Assembly (NCBI GenBank): GCA_000002445.1
Contig: CP000070.1
Location: 1,568,001 to 1,632,000, forward strand
Reading direction: 5' to 3'
Source: Trypanosoma brucei
Taxonomy: Eukaryota
DNA: 64,000 bases
Shown here: piece by piece, positions 22,223 to 48,821 of the stretch
Layout: each line of letters opens with the position of its first letter
Numbering within the stretch: the stretch's first letter is position 1
Translations under genes and position numbers: made by a program
The notes under the pieces: generated by a model
Database searches by the model: none
What the model saw: only the letters and a program-made list of their open reading frames with translations
Told to the model about the DNA's origin: nothing

Positions 22223-24013
22223 ATGAGCGCACCCGTCGACAACGTCGTGGTGGAGCGGCTCTCTACAGCCAACCAAAAACCCATCAACGAGCCCCGCCGC
22301 TTTGCGCTGTTGGTTCTTGGAACCTTCTGCTGTATATGCACATCCTTCATGTATGCTTTCAATCTTATATCTGGAGCAATGCAAGCGCGCTACAACCTCA
22401 CACAGCGAGATCTCTCCACCATCACTACTGTTGGTATCGCAGTTGGATATTTCTTGCTGCCCTACAGCTTCATCTTTGACTATCTGGGGCCGAAGCCTAT
22501 CTTCGTGATCGCAATGACAGTTTTCTGCCTGGGTGCGCTTCTGTTTGCCTTGACATTCCAAGAAGTGATTGAAGGATCTGTTGTGAGACTCAGTGTCTAC
22601 AATGGTTTTTTAACATTGGGATGTATGTTGTTTGACTTGGGTTCAGTGGTAACAGTACTCAGCGTGTTTCCATCCAACCGTGGTGCCGTGATGGCTATCG
22701 TGAAGACATTTACGGGTCTTGGTTCCGCAATCGTCGGCAGTATTCAGTTGGCCTTCTTCAGCAAGAGTGTTGCCAACTACTTTTTCTTCCTGATGTCGTT
22801 TTCACTGGTCGTTGGTACCCTCGCCGTCGTGTTCATGAATCTACCACCATTCCATTTGACGGGTTATCAGAAGACACACCTTGATGAAGAAGAGAAGGCA
22901 CAGAGGCTTGCGCGCAAGGGTGTGTACCTGAAGCAGAAGGCACCCATGTGGCGTTTCGTTCATGGTTTCGCCATTCTCGTAACCCTCATTGTGTTCCTCC
23001 CCCTGCAGGGAGCGCTCGTAGCGTATCTCAAACTCGGAAGCAACTTCAAGGTGGGGTTTGCTGTGACAGTTATTGTGTTGACGGTAATATTCCCTTTTAT
23101 GGCATACCCACTTACTACCTTCGACGGAAAACGCCCACATGACGATTCTGAGGGTGAAACGTGTTGTAGGAGAGAAGTGGCTGAGGAAGTTTCCGCGTCT
23201 GATGACACGGGTGTTGAGACTGATGTCGACTATATTGCTCCACAGTTCCAGGAAACATTTATCGAAGGATTGAAAACAGCACGGTTATGGTGCCTACTGT
23301 GGTCAATTTTCTGTTGCGTCGGTGTGCACTATGTTATCATCTACAATGCTCGTTTCATCTACACGGCACTTGCGGGTGAGGCCCCCGACGACGCGCTCAA
23401 TGCCCTCCTTACTGTTCTCAACGGTGTGGGTAGTGCTGTAGGACGACTTTGTATGAGTTACTTCGAAGTCTGGTCGCAGAAGCGCCGTGCTGAAGATCGC
23501 GTCCCCATCACCTTCTCTATGTTTGTTCCTTCGGTTTGTATCATCACCATGTTGACACTCTTCCTCACTCTCCCGAAGGCTGCATTACCTTTACCATACT
23601 TCATCGCGGCACTTTCAAATGGTTTCACAGCGGCGATTATTGCATTGGTAACGCGCACAATATTCGCCAAGGATCCTGCAAAGCATTACAACTTCTGCTT
23701 TCTTGGCTCCGTGCTTTCAGCCATCTTCCTTAATCGACTACTGTACGGTGAGTGGTACACGCAACAAGCCGATAAGTTGGGTCAGGATGTTTGCACCGAG
23801 CGTGTTTGTGTGGTGATGCCGCTTGCATTTATGTTAGGTCTCGCCTTCCCAGCATTTGCTACTAGCACCTACTTGCATCTGCAGTACCGCCGCCTTTGCA
23901 TGCTTGCGCTTGACGAGCGTCGTCGCATCCGGGAGGGCGAACGTGGACCAAAGGAACCTTCTTCCTGCCCAAAAGAACCGACGAGGGATGCCCGTGAGGC
24001 TGCTCCGCAATGA
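22223..24013 (+). CDS. PAD1: nodulin-like MFS transporter, PAD (protein associated with differentiation) family, array copy 1
   Basis: 596 aa, ~12-14 hydrophobic helices, conserved N-terminus MSAPVDNVVVERLSTANQKP. Symbol assigned by position (first of eight tandem copies downstream of ATG8.1/ATG8.2/MST), matching my recollection of the T. brucei chr7 PAD1-8 locus. Unique C-tail …GERGPKEPSSCPKEPTRDAREAAPQ. Confidence 0.7.
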   Translation: MSAPVDNVVVERLSTANQKPINEPRRFALLVLGTFCCICTSFMYAFNLISGAMQARYNLTQRDLSTITTVGIAVGYFLLPYSFIFDYLGPKPIFVIAMTVFCLGALLFALTFQEVIEGSVVRLSVYNGFLTLGCMLFDLGSVVTVLSVFPSNRGAVMAIVKTFTGLGSAIVGSIQLAFFSKSVANYFFFLMSFSLVVGTLAVVFMNLPPFHLTGYQKTHLDEEEKAQRLARKGVYLKQKAPMWRFVHGFAILVTLIVFLPLQGALVAYLKLGSNFKVGFAVTVIVLTVIFPFMAYPLTTFDGKRPHDDSEGETCCRREVAEEVSASDDTGVETDVDYIAPQFQETFIEGLKTARLWCLLWSIFCCVGVHYVIIYNARFIYTALAGEAPDDALNALLTVLNGVGSAVGRLCMSYFEVWSQKRRAEDRVPITFSMFVPSVCIITMLTLFLTLPKAALPLPYFIAALSNGFTAAIIALVTRTIFAKDPAKHYNFCFLGSVLSAIFLNRLLYGEWYTQQADKLGQDVCTERVCVVMPLAFMLGLAFPAFATSTYLHLQYRRLCMLALDERRRIREGERGPKEPSSCPKEPTRDAREAAPQ

Positions 24014-24979
24014 AGCTTAGGGGAGCCAGTGGAGGGCGGCTTCCTGACGTTTATTCAACATTTTGTGTATTTATATAATGTTAGCGACGACAGGAGAAAG
24101 TAAAATGAACAGATATACTTTGATTCCTTTTTACTATACTTTTCCTTTTTTTTTGCTTCTTTGTCTATACATATCGCATACCATTAGTGAGTTCCTTTAT
24201 TATCGCCTCCGACAATGAAGACGGTGCGCCAACTCTGGTAAACGATAAATAAACGGTTTTAAAAAATCATCTTTACACATATTGTACGAGCAGTCCATGC
24301 ATTATTATTCTTTTTTTTTGAGTTTTCTCATCAGAAGAGATCGATACAACAACACCAGTCACTATATGAACACACCAACTTATATCGTTAAATTCTTCAC
24401 TTAGCTCTCGTTTATGATCGATAAAAGTTCGAATTCACCTCAAAAAATTTCCAGAATTAATATTATATTTTCTTTCCATTCTTTGCTATTTTCAGAGCGA
24501 TCTCCTTACTCTCACCCACTCTTCACCCGTGGAAACACCATGTAATCCTTTTCTTCTTGCGGTGGGAGAGAGGAGAGTGCAGACCAACACAGGCACCCCA
24601 ACACCGTTGATCCGTAGTGCTACCTATCTCGTCTTCATATCTTTACTGCTTGTTATAATTTTGTCTTTTTTACCTTTTTTTTTCGGCTGCGCTGTCACGG
24701 TTTTATAAATGTCCATTGCAAAATAGTTGCTCTCAAGACACACATCAATAGCATTATATCCGCCCAATACCTCTTCTTTCATTCTCCCAAAACTTAATGC
24801 TTTCATTTCTCCCTTTTTGACTTATTGAACCTTTGAACAATACCACAGACTAACAGCAATAAACAAGCACGCAGTCACGTAAAGGAACCTAACATTTTAG
24901 GGAAACAAAAATTATCTGGCAGCACACTGGGCGAAACATCAGGAGGAATACAACTGAGCGTACTGTACAAAACATTGCC

Positions 24980-26797
24980 ATGAGCGCACCCGTCGACAAC
25001 GTCGTGGTGGAGCGGCTCTCTACAGCCAACCAAAAACCCATCAACGAGCCCCGCCGCTTTGCGCTCTTGGTTCTCGGAACCTTCTGCTGTATATGCACAT
25101 CCTTCATGTATGCTTTCAATCTTATATCTGGAGCAATGCAAGCGCGCTACAACCTCACACAGCGAGATCTCTCCACCATCACTACTGTTGGTATCGCAGT
25201 TGGATATTTCTTGCTGCCCTACAGCTTCATCTTTGACTATCTGGGGCCGAAGCCTATCTTCGTGATCGCAATGACAGTTTTCTGCCTGGGTGCGCTTCTG
25301 TTTGCCTTGACATTCCAAGAAGTGATTGAAGGATCTGTTGTGAGACTCAGTGTCTACAATGGTTTTTTAACATTGGGATGTATGTTGTTTGACTTGGGTT
25401 CAGTGGTAACAGTACTCAGCGTGTTTCCATCCAACCGTGGTGCCGTGATGGCTATCGTGAAGACATTTACGGGTCTTGGTGCCGCAATCGTCGGCAGTAT
25501 TCAGTTGGCCTTCTTCAGCAAGAGTGTTGCCAACTACTTTTTCTTCCTGATGTCGTTTTCACTGGTCGTTGGTACCCTCGCCGTCGTGTTCATGAATCTA
25601 CCACCATTCCATTTGACGGGTTATCAGAAGACACACCTTGATGAAGAAGAGAAGGCACAGAGGCTTGCGCGCAAGGGTGTGTACCTGAAGCAGAAGGCAC
25701 CCATGTGGCGTTTCATCTATGGTTTCGTCGTTCTTTTGATTCTTGTTGTCTTCCTCCCCTTGGAGGGAGCGCTCGTAGCGTATCTCAAACTCGGAAGCAA
25801 CTTCAAGGTGGGGTTTGCTGTGACAGTTATTGTGTTGACCGTAATATTCCCTTTTATGGCATTCCCACTTACTACCTTCGACGGAAAACGCCCACATGAC
25901 GATTCTGAGGGTGATGCCAAAGAACACGTTGAAGCGGATGATGAAGTTTCCGCGGCGGAAGATAAGGTAGTTGAGACTGATGTCGACTATATTGCTCCAC
26001 AGTTCCAGGAAACATTTATCGAAGGATTGAAAACAGCACGGTTATGGTGCCTACTGTGGTCAATTTTCTGTTGCGTCGGTGTGCACTATGTTATCATCTA
26101 CAATGCTCGTTTCATCTACACGGCACTTGCGGGTGAGGCCCCCGACGACGCGCTCAATGCCCTCCTTACTGTTCTCAACGGTGTGGGTAGTGCTGTAGGA
26201 CGACTTTGTATGGGCTACTTCGAAGTCTGGTCGCAGAAGCGCCGTGCTGAAGATCGCGTCCCCATCACCTTGTCTATGTTTGTTCCTTCGGTTTGTATCA
26301 TCACCATGTTGACACTCTTCCTCACTCTCCCGAAGGCTGCATTACCTTTACCATACTTCATCGCAGCGTTCTCAAATGGCTTTATGGCGGCTACGATGGC
26401 ACTCGTAACACGCACAATATTCGCCAAGGATCCTGCAAAGCATTACAACTTCTGCTTTCTTGGCTCCGTGCTTTCAGCCATCTTCCTTAATCGACTACTG
26501 TACGGTGAGTGGTACACGCAACAAGCCGATAAGTTGGATCAGGATGTTTGCACCGAGCGTGTTTGTGTGGTGATGCCGCTTGCATTTATGTTAGGTCTCG
26601 CCTTCCCAGCATTTGCTACTAGCACCTACTTGCATCTGCAGTACCGAAATCTTTGTTTGAAGGCCCTTGAGGAGCGACGGAGGATAAAGGAAGCTGAAGA
26701 TAACCAAACAAATGCTGAAAATGTTTGTGCTGAACCTACCTGCGACGATAACGCTGATGCTTGTCTGGAGGAGAAAGCTGCTGATTCAAGCAAGTAA
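24980..26797 (+). CDS. PAD2: PAD-family MFS transporter, array copy 2
   Basis: 605 aa, ~95% identical to copy 1 over the first 300 aa. Distinct acidic loop (GDAKEHVEADDEVSAAED) and unique C-tail (…KEAEDNQTNAENVCAEPTCDDNADACLEEKAADSSK). Confidence 0.7.
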   Translation: MSAPVDNVVVERLSTANQKPINEPRRFALLVLGTFCCICTSFMYAFNLISGAMQARYNLTQRDLSTITTVGIAVGYFLLPYSFIFDYLGPKPIFVIAMTVFCLGALLFALTFQEVIEGSVVRLSVYNGFLTLGCMLFDLGSVVTVLSVFPSNRGAVMAIVKTFTGLGAAIVGSIQLAFFSKSVANYFFFLMSFSLVVGTLAVVFMNLPPFHLTGYQKTHLDEEEKAQRLARKGVYLKQKAPMWRFIYGFVVLLILVVFLPLEGALVAYLKLGSNFKVGFAVTVIVLTVIFPFMAFPLTTFDGKRPHDDSEGDAKEHVEADDEVSAAEDKVVETDVDYIAPQFQETFIEGLKTARLWCLLWSIFCCVGVHYVIIYNARFIYTALAGEAPDDALNALLTVLNGVGSAVGRLCMGYFEVWSQKRRAEDRVPITLSMFVPSVCIITMLTLFLTLPKAALPLPYFIAAFSNGFMAATMALVTRTIFAKDPAKHYNFCFLGSVLSAIFLNRLLYGEWYTQQADKLDQDVCTERVCVVMPLAFMLGLAFPAFATSTYLHLQYRNLCLKALEERRRIKEAEDNQTNAENVCAEPTCDDNADACLEEKAADSSK

Positions 26798-29700
26798 CAT
26801 CTTTTTTTTCTTTTCACTAACTTATGTTTTTAGCGGCACGTTACAGTGTACTAATTATCGTTTTACCCTCTCTTTTTTATTTTTTAATTTGTTAAAAAAT
26901 TTTCCCTCAAAACGTCTTTTCTTTTTGTGAATTACTATTCCTTCCCTTTTTTTTTTGTTTTTGTGGGGAAGGGGGAGGAAATTGTGGTAATGTAAACTGG
27001 TATATGTGTTTAATAACTTAAATGCCTTATGATGTGCAATTTCATTAGTAGTTCCGCTGCTTTCCAGTACCGAATATATTTTATGTTACTTAGCCTTCGC
27101 TGCGATGTAACAAGTAGTGGGGTGGTTGATTACTTGGCATATATAATGCACAGCATCAGGGCAGAGGCCACAGTTGTTTAGTTACACATTTTCCTACCTT
27201 CCATAATGTTGTTTTTTTTAGATTGAGCGATTCTTCCCCTTAAACTAATAATGTTTTTTAATTACCTCCTTCTTCCATCTTTTTTTTATTTTTGAAGGTC
27301 AGATTCCTTTTTATTATTATTATTTCTTCTCCCCTTTTCTGTGACTGTCTTTCAACCGCTTAGCACGTTGTTAGCGGAAGGACAAACGAAAACCTTAAAG
27401 GTTTTTGTTAATTTTGTCTATTTACTCTGTTTTGTATCGATTTTCTTTTGAAACGCCACTGAAAATGTGGAGCACATTTACTTTTTTTCCGGCTGTTCAC
27501 ACATGTACACATGCTTGGCCTTTCAAATCCACGCAAACCTTTGAACGCCTCTTTTTTTTTAAGTTTCTTCTTAAGAGAACGTTTTTTTTGATTATTTTTC
27601 TTTTTTAGTTTGAATACTACAAAACTACTTGTTCCCAATGTATTGGTTAATTGCCGGTCGTGGGATTTTGGTCCTTAACACGTAGCGGATAGATGCGTCG
27701 CTCATGATTAACCTGTGCTTTACTGCTTAATTCCTTTAGTCATAGTGTAGGAAAATATACGAATAGGAAAATGCAAACCACATCATGAGAGCATGGCATT
27801 CATTGTTCAATGTCTGCGGTGATGATGAAAGGTGCAGAAGCCAACTTTCGTTGCTTCGTCGGGGAACCCGTGTGCAGCGAAGGTTCCTCTTAACCGTCGG
27901 GTGCTCGGCATTTGACAGGCAGTAGCTTTATACCGCGTTCATCCCATTAATTATTCTTTTGCTTTGTTGCCTCTACAACATGCTCGCTTGGGAATCAGCC
28001 GATGCTGATGTTATTGCACACGTTTATATTTGTGTTTACGTGTATGCTCACCTGTGTACAAGAGGAAGAAGCATGTGGGCCTATCCATCACTACCAGAGC
28101 GGAAACCTGTTGCACCTAAAAGGTGATAACCCATTGAAAAAATATTGCTATGTAGGTGAAAAACAAACGGCAAAGAAAAAAAGGAAGGGAAAGCTAAGCA
28201 AAGCATATCCCTCACCCAGACGTCTGAGATAAACGTGAAACTGGACGAAGTGAAATAACACACAAAAGAGTAATTGAACAAATGGTTTCTTCTTTGTCCC
28301 CAAATGCCACTCAGAGGGAAGATGGTACGACCCAACGCTACGAAGCACCAAAGCCCTATTTGTAAGGTAGCGAAGGGAGACGAGGAAAGGGGCTAACGCT
28401 GAGGCGGGAAATTTTAGCGGAGGCAGCGGGAGGAACGTTGGGATTTACAGGGCGCAAGTGACGTCATCATTCTCTGGCAAGTTTTTGTGGTAAAACAGCG
28501 AATGCTCCGGGTGGGAATGAAGTGCTTTTAGAGTGCCCTATACCTTTTTAACGTGCTTTTCTTTCTTTCTGACTTTCGTTTGCTTCGCGGCGGCAATGTA
28601 CGTGCTCACTTTGGTAGTATTTCCAATACCATTGGTAACACTATTTACTGGGGAAAAACGTTAAAACTCTGTATGCGATGTGTTGACGGCGATTAGTGGT
28701 GTTGGAGCGAGGAGGTCTCGTTTTCTCAATATTCCACGATGGGTGTGTGGGTGTGTCGCAAGGGCGGGAAAATTTCTCGTAGCAATTCCTACATATTTGT
28801 CGTGAGCAATTCACCAACGCAGCAAGATGAGGGAACCGCGCATTGGGGAAACAGGGGTTTACATTTCGCAGAAGCGCTTAATAGACATGCACAAATAACA
28901 CATGTTTGTTGGATGTTTGATCATGCACATGTAGTGGAGAAAGTAGACGCACACCCTTCCGCGCACCAAGCTAGGAGAGATCAAGGATTCCATCCTTAAA
29001 AGCGATGATGCTTGGTGTAAAGCATATTTCTTGATGTGACATAACTTTCGGGTGAACTACGTATTGGTTGGGGAGGGTTTCCCCTTGAATGCAAGGCGAA
29101 ATTTAGGTGGTTACAATTGAATGTATTTTTACTTTTTTTTTTCCAATGGCGTGCCTCCCAGCCAACGTTATTGGTGAACGCTCTTCAGATGTGAATACGT
29201 GAGCGCACCTACAGTGCGAGTTCTTTCACCCATCAGCACGGGTATGTTCCTACTCCGAGGTCAGTCCAGCTTGGCACCTCGGTGCATCGGGAGGCCCGCT
29301 GTGAGGTAGAGTCACCTCATTTTTTTTCCTTGTGTCAGTTAAAAAGCCGCTTCGCTGTATCAATGGTAAAGCTCTGTGACGACGACACTGCGGCAGGAGG
29401 TGAAGCTTGGGCTCAAAGTGTCCAATTTGTGTGTTGAGGTGCCCCATCAACCTGAAAATCTGTGCGCACGTTGGGTGCCACTCTGGTGATTTGGTGCGCG
29501 TGTCCCCAAGCGTAATCAGCGATCCACTTGGCGGTGCCACCCTCTCCTGCGATCAAACGGCTGCGTCTGGCGCCAATGCGGCTGACGTTGTGCCAACTCC
29601 CATGGTAAGAGGCCCTGGTAGGAAGGGTCTACCCGCCTTTGGATTTGGTGGTGAAACTGCGGTGCGTCCACTGTTTTATATTTTCCTCTGCAATCGTATC

Positions 29701-31277
29701 AGTGTTTAATGAGAAGTATGAAGGGGCTTTCTGTTTCGTTGCTTGCATCTTATTCACGCTCATCTTGTCTTTTTGCCGAACAAGTCGGTGTTTGAGGTAC
29801 CTCATCCTACTACGAACGGCCGGGTCCCTCTACGTTCGGAACTGAAGATACACGATATCCACTTTATGTCGCTCTCATCACCAACGTGATGGGTAATGCT
29901 GTGCGCGTTGAAGGGAGAATGCCTTCAAGTTAACATGAGGGTGTTGCCACCCTGCCTGCAATGATACACCCCTGGGCTCCTTCAACTCATCACCACAAAA
30001 AGGACTGCGAATTCATAACCCCGGAAGGTCTCCCTCAATATCTCTTGGACAATTCAGCACCTCTCCGTTTACATACTTCAGACGTGTCCCTCTGATGTTC
30101 GGCGATGTGATAAGTCATTCCTTGCAACTGCAAGACTTATTGCGTCTCTATGCGGGCATAGCTCCAGTTTATTAGGGAGGGGGAATCAGGTGCGAGTCCA
30201 GGTTCGTCACCTCGCTGTGAAGCACGTTGTAAATGCCACGATGCTCGGTTGTAGAAACCGCTGCGTAACTTTGCGCTCATGTGTCCTGCCGGGTCGCGTC
30301 ACGTGGCAGTGATTCTCAGCGTCAAAGGGGTCCCCGACGGTATTACAAGCTTGAACCGTGCTGTTTTCAGTTGCGCAACCATGGCCATCATATCAGTGAA
30401 CCGTAGCCTCCCCGAAGGAATCGTAGGGAAGCGACTGGGGGCGTGCGAGCACTCACCAACGACTAATGTTTAGTTTCCTTCCACCCAATTATGTGCCGCA
30501 CTGCGTAGAGGATGTCTTTGCGCCCTGTGGGGAAATCGGAGCCTTCTCAGCCGAGAGATAACTGAGTGCAGATGTAAACTACCACAGCCACTCAACAGCC
30601 ACTGCCAAGTGAAACGGTTTACGTCATACCGTTTTCACTGCATCCGTATTTTACTCGTCTTTGATGCCATCAGCATCAAACAACATCATAAATACAGTAG
30701 TGTGCCACAAACTCCGAGTTATGCTTACTCTAACCGTAGAAGCAGAAAGGGTATGACAACAAAGGAGTCATTAACCCCTCAAACCACGTAGAATACATAA
30801 CAGTCCCCCTCTCCACCCCTACGCCAGGAAAGCACATTTCACATAATGTCGGAGAGACTAATGTGACTACAATGCGCGCACAGCACCTTTATTACCAAAA
30901 AGAAATGGACAAGCGAAGCAAAAAAAAAAAAAGAGACATTTGATCAACGCGCAAAAAATGAGGGATTGAACCTTCCAAATGGAAAGCACCTCCCGTCTTT
31001 TTCATGAAAAACAGCAAGCAAGATGTATTCTCCCAGACAACAATAGAGCTATGATTAACTTCTCACCACCTAGTTTCGTTCTCCCAAAACTTAATGCTCT
31101 CATTTCTCCCCTTTTCGACTTATTGAACCTTTGAACAATACCACAGACTAACAGCAATAAGCAAGCACGCAGTCACGTAAAGGAACCTAACATTTTAGGG
31201 AAACAAAAATTATCTGGCAGCACACTGGGTGAAACATCGGGAGGAATACAACTGAGCGTACTGTACAAAACATTGCC

Positions 31278-34530: not shown

Positions 34531-34582
34531 TGGGTGAAACATCAGGAGGAATACAACTGAGCGTACTGTACAAAACATTGCC

Positions 34583-36813: not shown

Positions 36814-37773
36814 TTTTGCATATGGGTTTACCCAGCGTGAGATGTCCAGCAGCAGGCAGGCACGTACACACGCAGCAAATAGTGGTTTCACTGCTGTTTA
36901 TCTTCTGTTGGGTTTAAAAAACTCGCAATCTGAGCACCTTTCTGTTCGAGGGCTGACGATATTACTCCCCTGCTTCGGAGCTAAGGTTTCTTTGGCAGGT
37001 TGTCTTTCGCCCGCCCTCCTAAATTGTGTTGTCTTTTTGGGAAAACGGCAATAACTTTCAGATACCTTTATTACTTATTTGTTTGTCACCCTCCCTGCCT
37101 CGTTGTGTGCGCAGGTGGGATGCCACCACTCGTCACTTCCGACTTAACTCCTCTGCATAATACAGAAAAAGCTATTGATCTTTCCTTACATTTTCTCGTG
37201 TTGGAAGGTTTGTTGCGCGGTTGGTCAAGCATACATATATACGGATGGACGATGGTAAGGGAACAAATACCCGGTGACCTTTCATTATACTCAGTATATA
37301 AAGAATGTTTTCTTATGGCCAACTAGCTATCAGCTGATGGGAACCATTCCAGTTTGTATAGTTGTGCGAACAATAAATAGATGCTACAGTAGTAGTCTTC
37401 AACATAGCTATGGCATATTTAGTAACACATCATAGCTACGCAAGGCAGTGTGAAACTTTAAATACTTGGAGGCCTATTGGAGGTTGTAACAAGAAACAAC
37501 ATCGCCTATGATATGTGTACCTCCACAAATGACGGTAAATACCTACTTAAAAGGCTGTTCTGTGGAATCATCGGACCAAACATCGAGATGGAGTTATTCA
37601 CTAAACACAGAAAAAAGCGATCATCTTACCTTTATACACATGACACTGGTAGCTACTCCCATTATTACTTCTTTTCATTTGCAACCTACGTTATTATCCC
37701 CTCACATCCTCAAAGCTTTCAAATACATAAGATAAACACATTTATAAGAGCAACCACCATCACCACAGCACAC
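36814..37773 (+). repeat. type-B intergenic element, copy 2
   Basis: Same block, offset +3243. Confidence 0.8.
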
Positions 37774-37825
37774 TGGGTGAAACATCAGGAGGAATACAAC
37801 TGAGCGTACTGTACAAAACATTGCC

Positions 37826-39583: not shown

Positions 39584-40115
39584 GCTGCCGATGTCAGTTT
39601 GGCCTTTGGTAAGTAAATTATGTGCTTTGCTTTGATTTATAACATTCATAAGGTTTGTAAAAGTGCTGGTCAGCTAAATTTTCTTTACACCAATTTTACA
39701 TTGTGAGCCCTTCCCTTAATATTTTTCCTTCACAATTCCATCCCATCATTTTCGTTGTTTTGTGTTAACATCTGCCTGTGACTCATCAGGTAAATACTGA
39801 TCTTTTCCCCTTTTGGTTAACTTTTATTATTATTATTTTTTAATGTGTTCGTCCATATTTGTGGTCTTATGATAATGCGTACGACAATATAAGCCGCTGA
39901 TATGAGTGAGGGAACGTTATGCAGCGTACTCGGTAGACTCCAAGTACTGTAATTTACTTCCCTTTCAAGTGGTTCGTACGAATAATTTGTGTCACGGCAT
40001 CTTATTCATTTTTGTTTTCAGATATTAATAATTCCACGAGTATCTTTCTGCCGCTCTGTAATGCTCTTTTGTTTTCTCTTAATAAGCTGTTGGTTGTCAT
40101 TTTCGTTTACGTACC

Positions 40116-40118
<3 letters not shown>

Positions 40119-40146
<28 letters not shown>
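40119..40146. repeat. (AT)n microsatellite in type-A 3' flank
   Basis: Direct read. The same position in the duplicated flank (46346-46358) has a shorter tract, i.e. length polymorphism between paralogous flanks. Confidence 0.85.
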
Positions 40147-40150
<4 letters not shown>

Positions 40151-40812
40151 ACTCATGTGTACCTATTTTACACTATAATGAAAAATGCAACGGTGTGACA
40201 TATATCACACATAGCCAACAAAACATTTTCGGCACATATAACCTCTTTAAAGAGAATAAAACATTTAAAAATAAGTACACGAAGACTATATGCGGGGACC
40301 CTACGGCGCACCAGCGTAACTACAGTATTGACAATATATTATCAACTGCCACTCTTCACCCGCGGAAACACCATGTAATCCTTTTCTTCTTGCGGTGGGA
40401 GAGAGGAGAGTGCAGAACAACACAGGCACCCCAACACCGTTGATCCGTAGTGCTACCTATCTCGTCTTCATATCTTTACTGCTTGTTATAATTTTGTCTT
40501 TTTTACCTTTTTTTTTCGGCTGCGCTGTCACGGTTTTATAAATGTCCATTGCAAAATAGTTGCTCTCAAGACACACATCAATAGCATTATATCCGCCCAA
40601 TACCTCTTCTTTCATTCTCCCAAAACTTAATGCTTTCATTTCTCCCTTTTTGACTTATTGAACCTTTGAACAATACCACAGACTAACAGCAATAAACAAG
40701 CACACAGTCACGTAAAGGAACCTAACATTTTAGGGAAACAAAAATTATCTGGCAGCACACTGGGTGAAACATCGGGAGGAATACAACTGAGCGTACTGTA
40801 CAAAACATTGCC

Positions 40813-42609
40813 ATGAGCGCACCCGTCGACAACGTCGTGGTGGAGCGGCTCTCTACAGCCAACCAAAAACCGGTCAGTGAGCCCCGCCGTTTCCTCATGC
40901 TCGTCATTGGAGTCTCATGTTCCATGTGTACGTCCTTCATGTATGCCTTCAATCTTATATCTGGAGCAATGCAGGAACGTTACGACCTCACACAGCGAGA
41001 TCTCTCCACCATCACTACTGTTGGCATCTGTGTCGGATATTTCATGCTGCCTTATGGTTTCATCTATGACTATCTGGGGCCGAGACCTGTATTTGTAATA
41101 TCAATGACAGTTTTCTGCCTGGGTACGTTGCTTCTCGCACTGACATTCCAAGAAGTGATTGAAGGATCTGTTGTGAGACTCAGTGTCTACAACGCCCTCA
41201 TGATGCTCGGCTGCACACTCTTTGATTTGGGAGCCCTTGTGACAGTACTCAGCGTGTTTCCATCCAACCGTGGCATTGTTGTGGCTACTATGAAGACTAC
41301 CACCGGACTTGGTTCCGCAATCCTCGGTAGCATTCGCCTTGCATTCTTCAGCGGCAACACCTCTGCTTATTTCTACTTCCTCATGTCGTGGGCCCTGGCC
41401 GCTGGCATCTTGGCTCTTACGTTCGTCCGGCTACCACCATTCCATTTGACGGGCTATCAGGAAAAGCACCTTGATGAAGAAGAGAAGGCACAGCTTCGCA
41501 TGACCAAGACCGTGTACCTGAAGCAGAAGGCACCCATGTGGCGTTTCGTTCATGGTTTCGCCATTCTCGTAACCCTCATTGTGTTCCTCCCCCTGCAGGG
41601 ATCACTTGTAGCGTATCTCAAACTCGGAAGCAACTTCAGGGTGGGGTTTGCACTCGTTGTTATCGCGTTGATCGTAATATTCCCTTTTATGGCATTCCCA
41701 CTTACTACCTTCGACGGCAAACGCCCACATGACGATTCTGACAGCAAAGCCAAAGAACACGTTGGAGCAGGTGATGAAGTTTCCGCGGCGGAAGATAAGG
41801 TAGTTGAGACTGATGTCGACTATATTGCTCCACAGTTCCAGGAAACATTTATCGCAGGATTGAAAACCGCACGGTTATGGTGCCTACTGTGGTCAGCTTT
41901 CTGTTGTCTTGGAGCCAATTATGTCATAATTTACAATGCCCGTTTTTTTTACACGGCACTGGCGGGTGAGGCCCCTGAAGACGCGCTAAACACCCTCCTT
42001 ACTGTTCTAAATGGTGCAGGTAGTGCTGTAGGACGACTTTGTATGGGCTACTTCGAAATCTGGTCGCAGAAGCGGCCTGCTGCTGACCGTATTCCGATCA
42101 CCGCCGCTCTTTACGTTCCTTCGGTTTGTATCATCACCATGTTGACACTCTTCCTCACTCTCCCGAAGGCTGCATTACCTTTACCATACTTCATCGTGGC
42201 GTTCTCAAATGGTTTCACAGCGGCTACGATGGCACTCGTAACACGCACAATATTCGCCAAGGATCCTGCAAAGCATTACAACTTCTGCTTTATAGGTTCT
42301 ATCATGTCAGCCATCTTCCTTAATCGTCTACTGTACGGTGAGTGGTACACGCAACAAGCCGATAAGTTGGGTCAGGATGTTTGCAAGAAGCGTGTTTGTG
42401 TGGTGATGCCGCTTGCATTTATGTTAGGTCTCGCCTTTCTTGGTTTTCTTACCACAACGTACTTGCATCTGCAGTACCGCCGCCTTTGCAAGCTTGCGCT
42501 TGAGGAACGTCAGCGCATCCGGGAGGAGGAGCGTGTGCTAAATGAGCTGCCTTCTAACCCTACAGAGCCGACGGGGAATGCCGGTGAACCTGCGCATCAA
42601 CTCAAGTGA
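40813..42609 (+). CDS. PAD6: PAD-family MFS transporter, array copy 6 (near-identical to copy 4)
   Basis: 598 aa. Differs from copy 4 at only a handful of residues (K→R in SNFRVGF, I→V in DEVSAAE, TE→KK in VCKKRVC, V→A in PAHQLK). Confidence 0.65.
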   Translation: MSAPVDNVVVERLSTANQKPVSEPRRFLMLVIGVSCSMCTSFMYAFNLISGAMQERYDLTQRDLSTITTVGICVGYFMLPYGFIYDYLGPRPVFVISMTVFCLGTLLLALTFQEVIEGSVVRLSVYNALMMLGCTLFDLGALVTVLSVFPSNRGIVVATMKTTTGLGSAILGSIRLAFFSGNTSAYFYFLMSWALAAGILALTFVRLPPFHLTGYQEKHLDEEEKAQLRMTKTVYLKQKAPMWRFVHGFAILVTLIVFLPLQGSLVAYLKLGSNFRVGFALVVIALIVIFPFMAFPLTTFDGKRPHDDSDSKAKEHVGAGDEVSAAEDKVVETDVDYIAPQFQETFIAGLKTARLWCLLWSAFCCLGANYVIIYNARFFYTALAGEAPEDALNTLLTVLNGAGSAVGRLCMGYFEIWSQKRPAADRIPITAALYVPSVCIITMLTLFLTLPKAALPLPYFIVAFSNGFTAATMALVTRTIFAKDPAKHYNFCFIGSIMSAIFLNRLLYGEWYTQQADKLGQDVCKKRVCVVMPLAFMLGLAFLGFLTTTYLHLQYRRLCKLALEERQRIREEERVLNELPSNPTEPTGNAGEPAHQLK

Positions 42610-43036
42610 GTATGGAAGTTACTCGATTTTAAGCTGTGAGGTAATTTTAAAAAAACGTGTTTATTTGTTATTTTTTTTTGCGTGTACAAAACGCCTTTAG
42701 TGTCTTGTGGTAATATCTTGTATCTCTTAATTATGCTAATATACTAAAAACCGTATTTCTTGTTCTTACCCACTGCGGGAAGTGGACACTTGGATTAACA
42801 GTATCATAAGACAGAACTCTCTTTTTGATCCATGGTAAACTTCCCGCTACATTCTCTCATTTTCTCCGGGTGTGTTTGTAGGGTTTTTTTATAATTCTAT
42901 CCTCTATTTTTTTTTTATTCGATACTGACTTTACCTTTTGTTAACAAAAATTGGTTTGTTTATTCCCTGCTTTTTTTTCGTTTCTAATGTTGTCGTAATA
43001 TTTTATTTACAATTATTTCTTAATCTAATATATTTA

Positions 43037-43996
43037 TTTTTGCATATGGGTTTACCCAGCGTGAGATGTCCAGCAGCAGGCAGGCACATACACACGCAGC
43101 AAATAGTGGTTTCACTGCTGTTTATCTTCTGTTGGGTTTAAAAAACTCGCAATCTGAGCACCTTTCTGTTCGAGGGCTGACGATATTACTCCCCCGCTTC
43201 GGAGCTAAGGTTTCTTTGGCAGGGTGTCTTTCGCCCGCCCTCCTAAATTGTGTTGTCTTTTTGGGAAAACGGCAATAACTTTCAGATACCTTTATTACTT
43301 ATTTGTTTGTGACCCTCCCCGCCTCGTTGTGTGCGCAGGTGGGATGCCACCACTCGTCACTTCCGACTTAACTCCTCTGCATAATACAGAAAAAGCTATT
43401 GATCTTTCCTTACATTTTCTCGTGTTGGAAGGTTTGTTGCGCGGTTGGTCAAGCATACATATATACGGATGGACGATGGTAAGGGAACAAATACCCGGTG
43501 ACCTTTCATTATACTCAGTATATAAAGAATGTTTTCTTATGGCCAACTAGCTATCAGCTGATGGGAACCATTCCAGTTTGTATAGTTGTGCGAACAATAA
43601 ATAGATGCTACAGTAGTAGTCTTCAACATAACTATGGCATATTTAGTAACACATCATAGCTACGTAAGGCAGTGTGAAACTTTAAATACTTGGAGGCCAA
43701 TTGGAGGTTGTAACAAGGAACAACATCGCCTATGATATGTGTACCTCCACAAATGACGGTAAATACCTACTTAAAAGGCTGTTCTGTGGAATCATCGGAC
43801 CAAACATCGAGATGGAGTTATTCACTAAACACAGAAAAAAGCGATCATCTTACCTTTATACACATGACACTGGTAGCTACTCCCATTATTACTTCTTTTC
43901 ATTTGCAACCTACGTTATTATCCCCTCACATCCTCAAAGCTTTCAAATACATAAGGTAAACACATTTATAAGAGCAACCACCATCACCACAGCACA
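43037..43996 (+). repeat. type-B intergenic element, copy 3
   Basis: Same block, offset +9466. Confidence 0.8.
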
Positions 43997-44049
43997 CTGG
44001 GCGAAACATCAGGAGGAATACAACTGAGCGTACTGTACAAAACATTGTC

Positions 44050-45807
44050 ATGAGCGCACCCGTCGACAACGTCGTGGTGGAGCGGCTCTCTACAGCCAAC
44101 CAAAAACCCATCAACGAGCCCCGCCGCTTTGCGCTCTTGGTTCTTGGCGCCTTTTGTTCCATGTGTACGTCCTTTCTCTATGCCTTCAATCTCGTATCTG
44201 GAGCAATGCAAGCGCGCTACAACCTCACACAGCGAGATCTCTCCACCATCACTACTGTTGGTATCGCAGTTGGATATTTCTTGCTGCCCTACAGCTTCAT
44301 CTATGACTATCTGGGGCCGAGACCCATATTTATGCTCTCAGTAACGGTGTTCTGCCTGGGTACGTTGCTTCTCGCACTGACATTCCAAGAAGTGATCGAA
44401 GGATCTGTTGTGAGACTCAGTGTCTACAATGGTCTCATGACATTGGGATGTATGTTGTTTGACTTAGGCGGTGTGGTGACAGTACTCAGCGTGTTTCCAT
44501 CCAACCGTGGTGCCATTGTGGCTATCATGAAGAGCTTTGCAGGACTTGGTTCCGCAATCCTAGGCAGTATTCAGTTGGCCTTCTTCAGTGACAGGCCAGA
44601 TATATATTTCTTTTCTATCATGTCGTTTGCCCTAACGGTTGGTATCCTCGGCATTGTATTCATGCGTCTGCCACCATTCCATTTGACGGGCTATCAGGAA
44701 AAGCACCTTGATGAAGAAGAGAAGGCACAGAGGCTTGCGCGCAAGGGTGTGTACCTGAAGCAGAAGGCACCCATGTGGCGTTTCATCTATGGTTTCGTCC
44801 TTCTCATCATCCTCATTTTCTTCCTCCCCCTGCAGGGAGCGCTCGTAGCGTATCTCAAACTCGGAAGCAACTTCAAGGTGGGGTTTGCTGTGACAGTTAT
44901 TGTGTTGACCGCAATATTCCCTTTTATGGCATTCCCACTTACTACCTTCGACGGAAAACGCCCACATGACGATTCTGATGGTGAGGTGGATGATAAAGAG
45001 GAAATGAGTGAAGAGCCCTTCCCTGTGGAAGATAAGGTAGTTGAGACTGATGTCGACTATATTGCTCCACAGTTCCAGGAAACATTTTTCGAGAGCCTGA
45101 AAACCGCACGGTTATGGTGCCTACTGTGGTCAATTTTCTGTTGCGTTGGTGCCGAGTTTGTCATCATTTTTAATGCCCGATTTGTATACACGGCACTTGC
45201 GGGTGAGGTCCCCGACGACGCGCTAAACACCCTCCTTACTGTTCTAAATGGTGTGGGTAGTGCTGTAGGACGACTTTGTATGAGTTACTTCGAAATCTGG
45301 TCGCAGAAGCGCCGTGCTGAAGATCGCGTCCCCATCACCATTGCGCTGTTTATCCCTTCGGTTTGTATCATCACCATGTTGACACTCTTCCTCACTCTCC
45401 CGAAGGCTGCATTACCTTTACCATACTTCATCGCAGCAACAGCCAACGGCTTTATGGCCACAACCATCGCTCTCGTCGCCCGCACAATATTCGCCAAGGA
45501 TCCTGCAAAGCATTATGATTTCTGCTTTCTTGGTTCAATGCTTTCAGCCATCTTCCTTAATCGTCTACTGTACGGTGAGTGGTACACGCAACAAGCCGAT
45601 AAGTTGGGTCAGGATGTTTGCACCGAGCGTGTTTGTGTGGTGATGCCGCTTGCATTCTTACTTGGTTTATCTTTCTTGGCATTCATCACCAGCACCTACG
45701 TGCATCTGCAGTACCGAAATCTTTGTTTGAAAGCTCTTGAAGAACGTCGGCGCATCAGAGAAGGCGAAGAGGCATTAAATGATGAGTCACTGTCCCACAC
45801 AGAATAG
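44050..45807 (+). CDS. PAD7: PAD-family MFS transporter, array copy 7 (protein-identical to copy 5)
   Basis: 585 aa. By eye, the translation is identical to the 37826-39583 copy. Confidence 0.65.
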   Translation: MSAPVDNVVVERLSTANQKPINEPRRFALLVLGAFCSMCTSFLYAFNLVSGAMQARYNLTQRDLSTITTVGIAVGYFLLPYSFIYDYLGPRPIFMLSVTVFCLGTLLLALTFQEVIEGSVVRLSVYNGLMTLGCMLFDLGGVVTVLSVFPSNRGAIVAIMKSFAGLGSAILGSIQLAFFSDRPDIYFFSIMSFALTVGILGIVFMRLPPFHLTGYQEKHLDEEEKAQRLARKGVYLKQKAPMWRFIYGFVLLIILIFFLPLQGALVAYLKLGSNFKVGFAVTVIVLTAIFPFMAFPLTTFDGKRPHDDSDGEVDDKEEMSEEPFPVEDKVVETDVDYIAPQFQETFFESLKTARLWCLLWSIFCCVGAEFVIIFNARFVYTALAGEVPDDALNTLLTVLNGVGSAVGRLCMSYFEIWSQKRRAEDRVPITIALFIPSVCIITMLTLFLTLPKAALPLPYFIAATANGFMATTIALVARTIFAKDPAKHYDFCFLGSMLSAIFLNRLLYGEWYTQQADKLGQDVCTERVCVVMPLAFLLGLSFLAFITSTYVHLQYRNLCLKALEERRRIREGEEALNDESLSHTE

Positions 45808-47024
45808 GCTGCCGATGTCAGTTTGGCCTTTGGTAAGTAAATTATGTGCTTTGCTTTGATTTATAACATTCATAAGGTTTGTAAAAGTGCTGGTCAGCTA
45901 AATTTTCTTTACACCAATTTTACATTGTGAGCCCTTCCCTTAATATTTTTCCTTCACAATTCCATCCCATCATTTTCGTTGTTTTGTGTTAACATCTGCC
46001 TGTGACTCATCAGGTAAATACTGATCTTTTCCCCTTTTGGTTAACTTTTATTATTATTATTTTTTAATGTGTTCGTCCGGATTTGTGGTCTTATGATAAT
46101 GCGTACGACAATATAAGCCGCTGATATGAGTGAGGGAACGTTATGCAGCGTACTCGGTAGACTCCAAGTACTGTAATTTACTTCCCTTTCAAGTGGTTCG
46201 TACGAATAATTTGTGTCACGGCATCTTATTCATTTTTGTTTTCAGATATTAATAATTCCACGAGTATCTTTCTGCCGCTCTGTAATGTTCTTTTGTTTTC
46301 TCTTAATAAGCTGTTGGTTGTCATTTTCGTTTACGTACCTAAATATATATATATATATGTATACTCATGTGTACCTATTTTACACTATAATGAAAAATGC
46401 AACGGTGTGACATATATCACACATAGCCAACAAAACATTTTCGGCACATATAACCTCTTTAAAGAGAATAAAACATTTAAAAATAAATACACGAAGACTA
46501 TATGCGGGGACCCTACGGCGCACCAGCGTAACTACAGTATTGACAATATATTATCAACTGCCACTCTTCACCCGTGGAAACACCATGTAATCCTTTTCTT
46601 CTTGCGGTGGGAGAGAGGAGAGTGCAGAACAACACAGGCACCCCAACACCGTTGATCCGTAGTGCTACCTATCTCGTCTTCATATCTTTACTGCTTGTTA
46701 TAATTTTGTCTTTTTCACCTTTTTTTTTCGGCTGCGCTGTCACGGTTTTATAAATGTCCATTGCAAAATAGTTGCTCTCAAGACACACATCAATAGCATT
46801 ATATCCGCCCAATACCTCTTCTTTCATTCTCCCAAAACTTAATGCTTTCATTTCTCCCTTTTCGACTTATTGAACCTTTGAACAATACCACAGACTAACA
46901 GCAATAAACAAGCACGCAGTCACGTAAAGGAACCTAACATTTTAGGGAAACAAAAATTATCTGGCAGCACACTGGGTGAAACATCGGGAGGAATACAACT
47001 GAGCGTACTGTACAAAACATTGCC

Positions 47025-48821
47025 ATGAGCGCACCCGTCGACAACGTCGTGGTGGAGCGGCTCTCTACAGCCAACCAAAAACCGGTCAGTGAGCCCCGCC
47101 GTTTCGCCACTTTGGTTCTCGGCGTCTTTTGTTGTATGTGCACATCCTTCATGTATGCCTTCAATCTTATATCTGGAGCAATGCAGGAACGTTACGACCT
47201 CACACAGCGAGATCTCTCCACCATCACTACTGTTGGTATTGTAGTTGGATATTTCTTGCTGCCTTATGGTTTCATCTATGACTATCTGGGGCCGAGACCT
47301 GTATTTGTAATATCAATGACAGTTTTCTGCCTGGGTACGTTGCTTCTCGCACTGACATTCCAAGAAGTGATTGAAGGATCTGTTGTGAGACTCAGTGTCT
47401 ACAATGGTCTCATGGTATTGGGATGTATGTTGTTTGACTTGGGTGCCGTGGTAACAGTACTCAGCGTGTTTCCATCCAACCGTGGTGCCGTGATGGCCAT
47501 CATGAAGACATTTACGGGTCTTGGTTCCGCAATCGTCGGTTGTATACGACTAGGTTTCTTGAGTCAGAGTACCTCTGCTTATTTCTACTTCCTCATGTCG
47601 TTTGCCCTGGCCGCTGGCATCTTGGCTATTGCATTTCTGCGTCTGCCACCATTCCATTTGACGGGCTATCAGGAAAAGCACCTTGATGAAGAAGAGAAGG
47701 CACAGCTTCGCGTAACGAAGGGCGTGTACCTGAAGCAGAAGGCACCCATGTGGCGTTTCGTCTACGGTTTTGCTATTCTTTTGATTCTCATTGTGTTCCT
47801 CCCCCTGCAGGGATCACTGTCCGCCTATCTCAAACTCGGAAGCAACTTCAGGGTGGGGTTTGCACTCGTTGTTATCGCGTTGATCGTAATATTCCCTTTT
47901 ATGGCATTCCCACTTACTACCTTCGACGGCAAACGCCCACATGACGATTCTGACAGCAAAGCCAAAGAACACGTTGGAGCAGGTGATGAAGTTTCCGCGG
48001 CGGAAGATAAGGTAGTTGAGACTGATGTCGACTATATTGCTCCACAGTTCCAGGAAACATTTATCGCAGGATTGAAAACCGCACGGTTATGGTGCCTACT
48101 GTGGTCAGTTTTCTGTTGCGTTGGTGTGCACTATGTTGTCATCTACAATGCTCGTTTCATCTACACGGCACTGACCGGTGAGGCCCCTGAAGACGCGCTA
48201 AACACCCTCCTTACTGTTCTAAATGGTGTGGGTAGTGCTGTAGGACGACTTTGTATGAGTTACTTCGAAATCTGGTCGCAGAAGCGCCGTGCTGAAGATC
48301 GCGTCCCCATCACCATTGCGCTGTTTATCCCTTCGGTTTGTATCATCACCATGTTGACACTCTTCCTCACTCTCCCGAAGGCTGCATTACCTTTACCATA
48401 CTTCATCGCAGCGTTCTCAAATGGTTTCACAGCGGCGATTATTGCATTGGTAACGCGCACAATATTCGCCAAGGATCCTGCAAAGCATTACAACTTCTGC
48501 TATCTCGCCTCCGTGCTTTCAGCCATCTTCCTTAATCGTCTACTGTACGGTGAGTGGTACACGCAACAGGCCGATAAGTTGGGTCAGGATGTTTGCAAGA
48601 AGCGTGTTTGTGTGGTGATGCCGCTTGCATTTATGTTAGGTCTCGCCTTCCCAGCATTTGCTACTAGCACCTACTTGCATCTGCAGTACCGCCGCCTTTG
48701 CACGCTTGCGCTTGAGGAACGTCAGCGCATCCGGGAGGAGGAGCGTGTGCTAAATGAGTTGCCTTCTAACCCTATAGAGCCGACGGGGAATGCCGGTGAA
48801 CCTGCGCATCAACTCAAGTGA
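47025..48821 (+). CDS. PAD8: PAD-family MFS transporter, array copy 8
   Basis: 598 aa. A mosaic: copy-4/6-like loop and C-tail, copy-1-like segments (…FTAAIIALVTRTIFAKDPAKHYNFCYLASVLSAIF, AFPAFATSTYLHLQYRRLC). Confidence 0.65.
   Translation: MSAPVDNVVVERLSTANQKPVSEPRRFATLVLGVFCCMCTSFMYAFNLISGAMQERYDLTQRDLSTITTVGIVVGYFLLPYGFIYDYLGPRPVFVISMTVFCLGTLLLALTFQEVIEGSVVRLSVYNGLMVLGCMLFDLGAVVTVLSVFPSNRGAVMAIMKTFTGLGSAIVGCIRLGFLSQSTSAYFYFLMSFALAAGILAIAFLRLPPFHLTGYQEKHLDEEEKAQLRVTKGVYLKQKAPMWRFVYGFAILLILIVFLPLQGSLSAYLKLGSNFRVGFALVVIALIVIFPFMAFPLTTFDGKRPHDDSDSKAKEHVGAGDEVSAAEDKVVETDVDYIAPQFQETFIAGLKTARLWCLLWSVFCCVGVHYVVIYNARFIYTALTGEAPEDALNTLLTVLNGVGSAVGRLCMSYFEIWSQKRRAEDRVPITIALFIPSVCIITMLTLFLTLPKAALPLPYFIAAFSNGFTAAIIALVTRTIFAKDPAKHYNFCYLASVLSAIFLNRLLYGEWYTQQADKLGQDVCKKRVCVVMPLAFMLGLAFPAFATSTYLHLQYRRLCTLALEERQRIREEERVLNELPSNPIEPTGNAGEPAHQLK

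What the first reader, a model, noticed from the sequence alone, without database searches (positions are those of the whole stretch)
22223..48821. Eight-copy tandem array of nodulin-like MFS transporters (PAD-like) with mosaic structure and three C-tail classes
All copies share an almost invariant N-terminus and TM core. They fall into discrete classes for two regions. One is the acidic loop after FDGKRPHDDS: GETCCRREVAEEVSASDD (copy 1), GDAKEHVEADDEVSAAED (copy 2), DGEVDDKEEMSEEPFPVED (copies 3/5/7), DSKAKEHVGAGDE(V/I)SAAED (copies 4/6/8). The other is the cytoplasmic C-tail, with unique tails for copies 1, 2 and 3, …ALNDESLSHTE for 5/7, and …NAGEP(A/V)HQLK for 4/6/8. Copy 8 is a patchwork of copy-1-like and copy-4-like segments, and copy 1 carries a copy-4-like block (MWRFVHGFAILVTLIVFLPLQG). 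This is the signature of gene conversion between paralogs. The loop and tail are the obvious places for copy-specific regulation or sorting. In T. brucei the PAD family mediates stumpy-form citrate/cis-aconitate perception, with copy-specific expression.
Basis: partly seen in the sequence, partly recalled or inferred. Interest (0 to 1): 0.5.

Follow-up and report, generated by a model that had tools for sequence, protein, structure and literature searches.

The report
Known trypanosome PAD1–PAD8 transporter array

Summary
Eight same-strand ORFs of 585–605 aa sit exactly at 22223–48821. The loop and C-tail classes are as described, apart from three small corrections. All eight proteins are residue-for-residue identical to consecutive T. 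brucei brucei TREU927 chromosome 7 proteins XP_846216–XP_846223. These are Tb927.7.5930–6000, the PAD1–PAD8 array of surface carboxylate transporters needed to sense citrate/cis-aconitate. Pfam places them in MFS_1 and Nodulin-like, above the curated cut-offs.

The mosaic structure is statistically strong. PHI gives z = −17. Zero-mismatch tracts of 75–219 nt link copies that otherwise differ by 10–24%. Of 96 differences from T. b. gambiense and T. b. equiperdum orthologues, 87 equal a residue in another paralogue. Gene conversion in this array ("Tb61") was published by Jackson in 2007, and three of his tracts match mine.

Small additions from this work:
- PAD4-5 and PAD6-7 are a 6.2-kb duplicated unit (99.3% identical).
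- A block of about 120 nt across the start codon is shared by all copies and is the likely crossover site.
- Each C-tail class continues into its own 3' flank class.
- One T. b. equiperdum copy combines the PAD1 tail with the PAD4/6/8 loop.

Verdict: already known, low interest.

The parts
22223..24013 (+). PAD1 (Tb927.7.5930), 596 aa. It has a unique acidic loop (GETCCRREVAEEVSASDD) and a unique tail. CDS nt 700-784 (window 22922-23006) are identical to PAD4.
24014..24979 (+). PAD1-PAD2 intergenic region, containing the PAD1 3'UTR. The first 502 nt are unique. Nt 503-966 (window 24516-24979) are 98.9% identical to the ends of the PAD5-6 and PAD7-8 spacers.
   Evidence: [quoted passage not shown]
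24980..26797 (+). PAD2 (Tb927.7.5940 by order), 605 aa, with a unique long acidic tail. It is 99-100% identical to PAD1 over nt 1-699 and 991-1350. It contains PAD3-, PAD8/4- and PAD5-like tracts.
26798..31277 (+). 4.48-kb non-coding spacer between PAD2 and PAD3. It has about 1 stop per 22 codons in all six frames and is unique in the window except for its last 204 nt, which are the type-A upstream region.
31278..33050 (+). PAD3, 590 aa, the most divergent copy, with a unique tail. Its loop is identical to the PAD5/7 loop. Nt 625-699 are identical to PAD4.
34583..40812 (+). Duplicated unit A: PAD4 (34583-36379), spacer, PAD5 (37826-39583), spacer.
   Evidence: 99.29% identical to unit B over 6212 aligned nt
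40813..47024 (+). Duplicated unit B: PAD6 (40813-42609), spacer, PAD7 (44050-45807), spacer.
   Evidence: PAD4/6 differ at 14 nt and PAD5/7 at 6 nt. At most of these sites both variants occur in other paralogues.
47025..48821 (+). PAD8 (Tb927.7.6000), 598 aa, a seven-segment mosaic. The segments are 4-like (47025-47416), 1-like (47417-47570), 4-like (47571-48108), 1-like (48109-48184), 5-like (48185-48410), 1-like (48411-48671) and 4-like (48672-48821).
48822..49590 (+). PAD8 3' flank, shared with the PAD4 and PAD6 3' flanks (97-99% identical). The 4/6/8 tail class therefore continues into a common 3'UTR class.
22163..22281 (+). One example of the universal block of about 120 nt (-60 to +59 around the ATG). 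It is near-identical upstream of and within all eight copies and is the proposed crossover anchor.

Best explanation
This is the PAD1-PAD8 ('proteins associated with differentiation') tandem array on chromosome 7 of Trypanosoma brucei brucei TREU927.

Shown here or in the literature: each gene encodes a major-facilitator-superfamily membrane transporter of the nodulin-like branch with about 14 helices. The literature describes the family as surface carboxylate transporters that let bloodstream stumpy forms perceive citrate/cis-aconitate and differentiate in the tsetse fly. PAD1 is stumpy-specific. [quoted passage not shown]

Shown here: the array evolves by unequal crossing-over, which produced the PAD4-5/PAD6-7 unit duplication, and by frequent short gene-conversion tracts between paralogues. 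These processes homogenise most of the coding body and leave it a mosaic.

Inferred: the 3' end of each gene (distal C-tail plus 3' flank) is a separate homology class that largely escapes homogenisation. All copies lie in one polycistronic transcription unit, so these distinct 3'UTRs are the likely basis of copy-specific expression. The acidic loop and the C-tail should both be cytoplasmic, because they follow an even number of helices.
For: - Identity: all eight proteins match XP_846216-XP_846223 of TREU927 exactly, on a 2.2-Mb contig. T. b. equiperdum homologues are named 'Protein Associated with Differentiation'. The PAD-to-gene-ID mapping is in PMC2753553.
- Family: Pfam MFS_1 and Nodulin-like, above the gathering cut-offs.
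- Topology: hydropathy and AF2 secondary structure give about 14 helices, with the acidic loop between helices 8 and 9.
- Function.
- Conversion tests: PHI z = -17.3, p < 0.0005. All 15 class pairs have longer concordant runs than permuted data (pairwise p <= 0.001), and 6 pairs are significant after correcting across pairs.
- Conversion tracts: 0-mismatch tracts of 75-219 nt between copies that differ by 10-24% overall.
- Agreement with Jackson 2007: his tracts (copy 2 at 937-1042, copy 1 at 1393-1477, copy 2 at 1648-1814) coincide with mine.
- Ongoing conversion: 87 of 96 differences from T. b. gambiense and T. b. equiperdum orthologues equal a residue in another paralogue, against a null of 2.7%.
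- Flank classes and unit duplication.
- PAD1 3'UTR controls stumpy-specific expression: PMC3439917.
Against: - Nothing argues against the identity.
- For the functional reading of the loop and tail, the loop core has pN about equal to pS (0.40/0.40 to 0.48/0.54). That fits relaxed constraint as well as specialisation.
- No sorting role of the tail was tested.
- The AF2 model was unusable (pLDDT 33), so the topology rests on hydropathy and on the general MFS convention.
Confidence: 0.96

Rival explanations
1. The mosaic is an assembly artefact. On this view, reads from near-identical tandem copies were mis-joined, creating apparent chimeras and perhaps the PAD4-5/PAD6-7 duplication.
For: PAD4/6 and PAD5/7 are 99.2-99.7% identical. 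The T. b. gambiense assembly is reported with 6 copies against 8 here (PMC2854126), so copy number is assembly- or strain-dependent.
Against: Independent T. b. gambiense and T. b. equiperdum assemblies contain the same classes with the same mosaic blocks, differing by only 2-21 aa. Units A and B differ at 44 aligned positions plus 18 gap columns spread along 6.2 kb, which is not expected of one collapsed-and-expanded copy. According to the literature, PAD1- and PAD2-specific reagents distinguish the products.
Confidence: 0.02
2. The block pattern reflects region-specific constraint or convergent evolution, not recombination. Some segments would simply evolve slowly and therefore look shared.
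For: Three blocks (nt 1-59, 991-1038, 1306-1370) are identical in all eight copies. This could reflect constraint at the RNA or protein level.
Against: Shared tracts are identical at synonymous sites, while adjacent sequence has pS of 0.3-0.6. The nearest relative of a copy changes along the gene, which rate variation cannot produce. The PHI incompatibility test is highly significant. The non-coding flanks are mosaic as well.
Confidence: 0.02
3. The loop and tail classes are neutral drift in disordered, unconstrained segments and have no role in regulation or sorting. Copy-specific behaviour would then come only from the 3'UTRs.
For: pN is about equal to pS in the loop core, and both are near saturation in the distal tail. 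The loop and distal tail are non-helical in the low-confidence model. The only mapped determinant is the PAD1 3'UTR. One T. b. equiperdum copy carries the PAD1 tail with a PAD4/6/8 loop, so the combinations are not fixed.
Against: The last 30 residues of PAD1, PAD2, PAD3 and PAD5/7 are identical between T. b. brucei and T. b. gambiense, although their divergence time is short. PAD2 shows temperature-dependent relocalisation and PAD1 is not reported to, which needs some protein-level determinant.
Confidence: 0.4

Closest known systems
T. brucei PAD1-PAD8 array (Tb927.7.5930-Tb927.7.6000; Dean et al. 2009 Nature, as cited in PMC2921060)
   Same: It is the same locus. The protein sequences are identical. 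It has eight tandem copies and belongs to MFS/nodulin-like families. The structure of the PAD1 3' flank matches the published mapping.
   Different: Nothing differs. This is the reference sequence itself.
Array 'Tb61' in Jackson 2007, BMC Evol Biol 7:54 (PMC1855330): gene conversion in T. brucei tandem arrays
   Same: The array and the conclusion are the same. GENECONV and SISCAN found conversion tracts affecting 7 of 8 copies, and CDS relationships were not mirrored by the UTRs. Three of the published tracts coincide with mine.
   Different: I resolve five 3'-flank classes and two 5'-flank classes, where the paper speaks of three UTR types. I add the PAD4-5/PAD6-7 unit duplication with its proposed crossover site. 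I also add the observation that about 90% of differences between subspecies are templated by paralogues.
Nodulin-like / MFS_1 transporters (Pfam PF06813, PF07690); trypanosome cell-surface phylome family Fam58
   Same: Pfam hits are above the gathering thresholds. PMC3605285 places the PADs among the Fam58 MFS transporters.
   Different: There are about 14 predicted helices, with two extra helices and a long acidic loop between the N- and C-halves. No solved structure is detectable by sequence. PAD orthologues are reported absent from T. vivax.

Membership tests
Major facilitator superfamily (Pfam MFS_1 PF07690) | Profile match above the curated gathering score | tested here: met
   56-80 bits against a cut-off of 33.4 for all six copies tested
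Major facilitator superfamily (Pfam MFS_1 PF07690) | 12-14 transmembrane helices in two halves joined by a cytoplasmic loop | tested here: met
   Kyte-Doolittle peaks and AF2 secondary structure give about 14 helices, with charged loops at residues 206-248 and 296-354. This is a crude method and the 3D model was unusable.
Nodulin-like (Pfam PF06813) | Profile match above the curated gathering score | tested here: met
   28-39.7 bits against a cut-off of 24.7
T. brucei PAD array (PAD1-8) | Sequence identity to Tb927.7.5930-6000 products | tested here: met
   Exact full-length matches to XP_846216-XP_846223 of TREU927. The gene-ID mapping is from PMC2753553.
T. brucei PAD array (PAD1-8) | Eight tandem same-strand copies in the chromosome 7 context | tested here: met
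   There are eight ORFs. Upstream lie a tandem ATG8 pair and a rhodanese gene, and downstream a GRESAG4-type adenylate cyclase. This fits the Tb927.7.59xx-60xx neighbourhood from my own knowledge, and Jackson's adjacent array Tb62 is GRESAG4.
T. brucei PAD array (PAD1-8) | Carboxylate transport and a requirement for citrate/cis-aconitate perception | not testable with these tools
   From the literature only
T. brucei PAD array (PAD1-8) | Copy-specific, stage- and temperature-regulated expression | not testable with these tools
   From the literature only. The distinct 3' flank classes are compatible with it.
Tandem array evolving by interlocus gene conversion | Statistically supported phylogenetic incongruence and breakpoints along the alignment | tested here: met
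   PHI z = -17.3; significant run-length tests; 4-9 donor segments per copy, including 0-mismatch tracts

The most novel reading that the evidence does not exclude
The acidic loop and the C-tail-plus-3'UTR may behave as independently exchangeable cassettes. Conversion would re-assort them onto a homogenised transporter core, so strains would differ in which loop, tail and UTR combinations they carry. One example is the T. b. equiperdum copy RHW71539, which has a PAD1 tail with a PAD4/6/8 loop. Such re-assortment could alter perception of the differentiation signal, for instance in tsetse-independent monomorphic lineages.
Probability: 0.1. Interest if true: 0.4.

Novelty: already known. Interest (0 to 1): 0.12.

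Why it matters
The PAD array matters biologically. It is the surface receptor-transporter family for the trypanosome differentiation signal, and PAD1 is the standard marker of stumpy forms. However, the locus, its function, its copy-specific expression and its gene-conversion history are all published, so this finding does not open a new question. The re-analysis offers a cleaner map of which segments are homogenised and which are private to each copy. That map helps when designing copy-specific probes, guides or read-mapping strategies.

Tried and rejected
- AlphaFold2 on the eight-paralogue alignment gave pLDDT 32.9 and pTM 0.25. The model was unusable, so I ran no fold search.
- A PDB profile search found no solved relative at E <= 0.01.
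- The look-up of encoding contigs has no record for PAD1 or PAD8, so I could not obtain chromosome coordinates.
- Dean et al. 2009 is not held in the library. I took its content from reviews.
- An Rfam gathering scan, ARAGORN and TRF found nothing relevant in the window: no RNA family, no tRNA, and only one (AT)n run.
- Pfam on the longest ORFs of the PAD2-PAD3 spacer and of the region downstream of PAD8 gave no hits. The stop density shows that the spacer is non-coding.
- The IR3 probe oligonucleotides from Tschudi 2012 do not occur in the window, so the inverted repeat here is not IR3.
- A search for papers giving chromosome 7 coordinates of the PADs returned nothing.
Full report
**Observation**

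The window contains eight + strand ORFs of 585–605 aa at exactly the reported coordinates: 22223-24013, 24980-26797, 31278-33050, 34583-36379, 37826-39583, 40813-42609, 44050-45807 and 47025-48821. tblastn with copy 1 finds these eight and no further fragments or pseudogenes.

These are the invariant first 20 residues, the FDGKRPHDDS anchor, the loop variants and the tails.

Four corrections are needed:
- There are five different tails, not three. PAD1, PAD2 and PAD3 are unique, and 4/6/8 and 5/7 are shared.
- The PAD2 and PAD4/6/8 loops are variants of one type. T. b. gambiense PAD2 reads DSKAKEHVEADDE.
- Copy 8 also carries a copy-5-like block.
- The TM core is conserved but not "almost invariant". 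Protein identity to copy 1 is 75–91%. Non-synonymous divergence between classes in TM1-6 is 9–21%.

**Identity**

Pfam assigns all tested copies to MFS_1 (56–80 bits, cut-off 33.4) and Nodulin-like (28–40 bits, cut-off 24.7).

An exact-sequence look-up shows that all eight proteins are identical to consecutive GenBank/RefSeq entries XP_846216–XP_846223 of Trypanosoma brucei brucei TREU927, on a 2,205,233-bp contig. Near-identical proteins in T. b. equiperdum are named "Protein Associated with Differentiation". PMC2753553 equates PAD1 with Tb927.7.5930, PAD6 with Tb927.7.5980 and PAD8 with Tb927.7.6000.

The flanking genes fit this neighbourhood. Upstream are a tandem ATG8 pair and a rhodanese/DUF1930 gene. 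Downstream, on the opposite strand, is a receptor-type adenylate cyclase. The window is therefore the reference PAD1–PAD8 locus itself.

**Known function**

Reviews citing Dean et al. 2009 describe the PADs as surface carboxylate transporters. They are required for stumpy forms to perceive citrate/cis-aconitate at physiological concentrations. PAD1 is stumpy-specific. [quoted passage not shown]

The PAD1 3'UTR carries the stage-specific regulatory elements. [quoted passage not shown] My intergenic BLAST reproduces this exactly. Nucleotides 503–966 after the PAD1 stop are 98.9% identical to the ends of the PAD5-6 and PAD7-8 spacers.

The PADs belong to cell-surface phylome family Fam58. Orthologues are reported absent from T. 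vivax, and T. congolense has about three relatives.

**Mosaic structure**

Between classes, CDS identity ranges from 76% to 93%, and the closest relative of each copy changes repeatedly along the gene.

Using one representative per class (copies 1, 2, 3, 4, 5 and 8):
- The PHI incompatibility statistic is 0.230, against a permutation mean of 0.324 (z = −17.3, p < 0.0005).
- Every pair has a longer run of concordant polymorphic sites than permuted data (pairwise p ≤ 0.001). Six pairs remain significant after correcting across pairs.

A copying-model painting needs 4–9 donor segments per copy. It finds these tracts:

| Tract (CDS nt) | Match | Mismatches |
|---|---|---|
| PAD1 700–784 | PAD4 | 0 |
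| PAD3 625–699 | PAD4 | 0 |
| PAD5 301–355 | PAD4 | 0 |
| PAD5 1168–1386 | PAD8 | 0 |

PAD8 resolves into seven segments, in the order 4-1-4-1-5-1-4.

These tracts are identical at synonymous sites, while neighbouring sequence has pS of 0.3–0.6. That excludes simple rate heterogeneity.

**Ongoing exchange**

Orthologues in T. b. gambiense and T. b. equiperdum differ from the window copies by 2–32 residues. Of these 96 differences, 87 equal the residue of another paralogue at the same column. The expectation for random substitutions is about 2.7%.

Several differences between the recent duplicates show the same pattern. The TE→KK triplet of PAD6, for example, is shared with PAD8.

One T. b. equiperdum protein (RHW71539) combines the PAD1 tail with the PAD4/6/8 loop. 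Loop and tail classes can therefore re-assort.

**Array architecture**

PAD4–spacer–PAD5–spacer (34583-40812) and PAD6–spacer–PAD7–spacer (40813-47024) are a duplicated unit, 99.29% identical.

Upstream regions fall into two types:
- Type A precedes PAD1, 2, 3, 6 and 8.
- Type B precedes PAD4, 5 and 7.

PAD4 and PAD6 have near-identical coding sequences but different upstream regions. All eight copies share a near-identical block of about 120 nt, from −60 to +59 around the ATG.

The pattern is what one unequal crossover would produce. A crossover between the start-codon blocks of PAD4 and PAD8 in an ancestral 1-2-3-4-5-8 array gives this arrangement. This is an inference. The reported 6 copies in T. 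b. gambiense against 8 here are consistent with it.

The 3' flanks fall into five classes that match the five tails (PAD1, PAD2, PAD3, 4/6/8, 5/7). The class boundary lies inside the CDS near nt 1650–1700. The distal tail and the 3'UTR therefore travel together.

**Selection and topology**

The helical core shows purifying selection, with pN/pS of about 0.3. The loop core (residues 310–330) has pN about equal to pS (0.40/0.40 to 0.48/0.54), and the distal tail is near saturation. This fits either relaxed constraint or old specialisation, and it is not evidence for positive selection.

Hydropathy gives about 14 helices. The acidic loop lies between helices 8 and 9, and a 50-residue tail follows helix 14. 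By the usual MFS N-in convention, both are cytoplasmic. This is an inference.

AlphaFold2 with only the eight paralogues as its alignment failed (pLDDT 33). Its helix boundaries agree with the hydropathy result. No solved structure is detectable by sequence.

**Prior art and verdict**

Jackson (2007, PMC1855330) analysed this array as "Tb61". GENECONV and SISCAN found conversion events affecting 7 of 8 copies. These include copy 2 at 937–1042, copy 1 at 1393–1477 and copy 2 at 1648–1814, and he noted UTR types incongruent with the CDS tree. My independent analysis recovers those three tracts.

My additions are incremental:
- the map of flank classes
- the unit duplication and its probable crossover site
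- the paralogue-templated nature of differences between subspecies
- the loop/tail recombinant in T. b. equiperdum

**Seen in passing**

- A 2,185-nt inverted repeat with 2 mismatches lies at 50587-52771 and 55569-57753, with a 2,797-nt spacer. It sits in the roughly 10-kb convergent strand-switch region between PAD8 and the adenylate cyclase gene.
  - Read-through transcription would produce a long hairpin. Tschudi et al. 2012 showed that long inverted repeats and convergent transcription units in T. brucei yield siRNAs.
  - Their chromosome 7 entries include IR4 (2,520 bp arms) and CTU26 (10.8 kb). I could not map coordinates to decide which, if either, this is. It is not IR3.
  - Tb927.7.6010 is the gene ID that follows PAD8 by numbering. 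It is shown as an RBP33-bound transcript in PMC4162612.
- The tandem ATG8 pair shows its own sharp conversion tract.

Noticed in passing
window 50587-52771 and 55569-57753: A 2,185-nt inverted repeat with only 2 mismatches and a 2,797-nt spacer lies inside the roughly 10-kb convergent strand-switch region between the PAD8 stop (48821) and the minus-strand adenylate cyclase stop (58783). ORFs in it have no Pfam hits. It could form a long hairpin RNA on read-through transcription. It may correspond to one of the siRNA-producing loci of Tschudi 2012 (Tb927_07_IR4 or CTU26). It is not IR3, and its arm length matches neither chromosome 7 repeat in their list.
   Followed up: partly
window 17291-17683 and 18960-19331: This is a tandem pair of ATG8 (autophagy ubiquitin-like) genes (Pfam PF02991, E 1e-40). 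The 3' part of the two coding sequences, about 260 nt, is identical except for 1 nt, and the 5' parts and flanks are strongly diverged. This is a sharp gene-conversion tract in a second array of the same window. The first protein ends ...FG and the second ...FGC.
   Followed up: partly
window 26798-31277: The spacer between PAD2 and PAD3 is unusually long at 4.48 kb, while the other spacers are 1.0-1.5 kb. It has stops in all six frames, no Pfam or Rfam hit and no repeat elsewhere in the window except its last 204 nt. It may be a long PAD2 3'UTR or a source of non-coding RNA.
   Followed up: partly
window -60 to +59 around each PAD start codon (e.g. 22163-22281, 34523-34641, 46965-47083): A block of about 120 nt spanning the end of the 5'UTR and the first 59 coding nt is near-identical in all eight copies, synonymous sites included. 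Two more coding blocks are identical in all copies (nt 991-1038 and 1306-1370). They are candidate recombination anchors or RNA-level elements.
   Followed up: partly
window 58783-62586 (- strand): A 1,267-aa receptor-type adenylate cyclase (GRESAG4-like: two periplasmic-binding-protein-like domains plus a cyclase catalytic domain) is the first gene of the converging transcription unit.
   Followed up: partly
T. b. equiperdum protein RHW71539 (P0007), compared with window 22223-24013: This PAD1-like protein has the PAD1 C-tail but the PAD4/6/8-type acidic loop and a PAD4/8-like stretch at residues 55-108. All 32 differences from PAD1 match another paralogue. It indicates strain-specific re-assortment of loop and tail modules in a tsetse-independent lineage.
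   Followed up: partly
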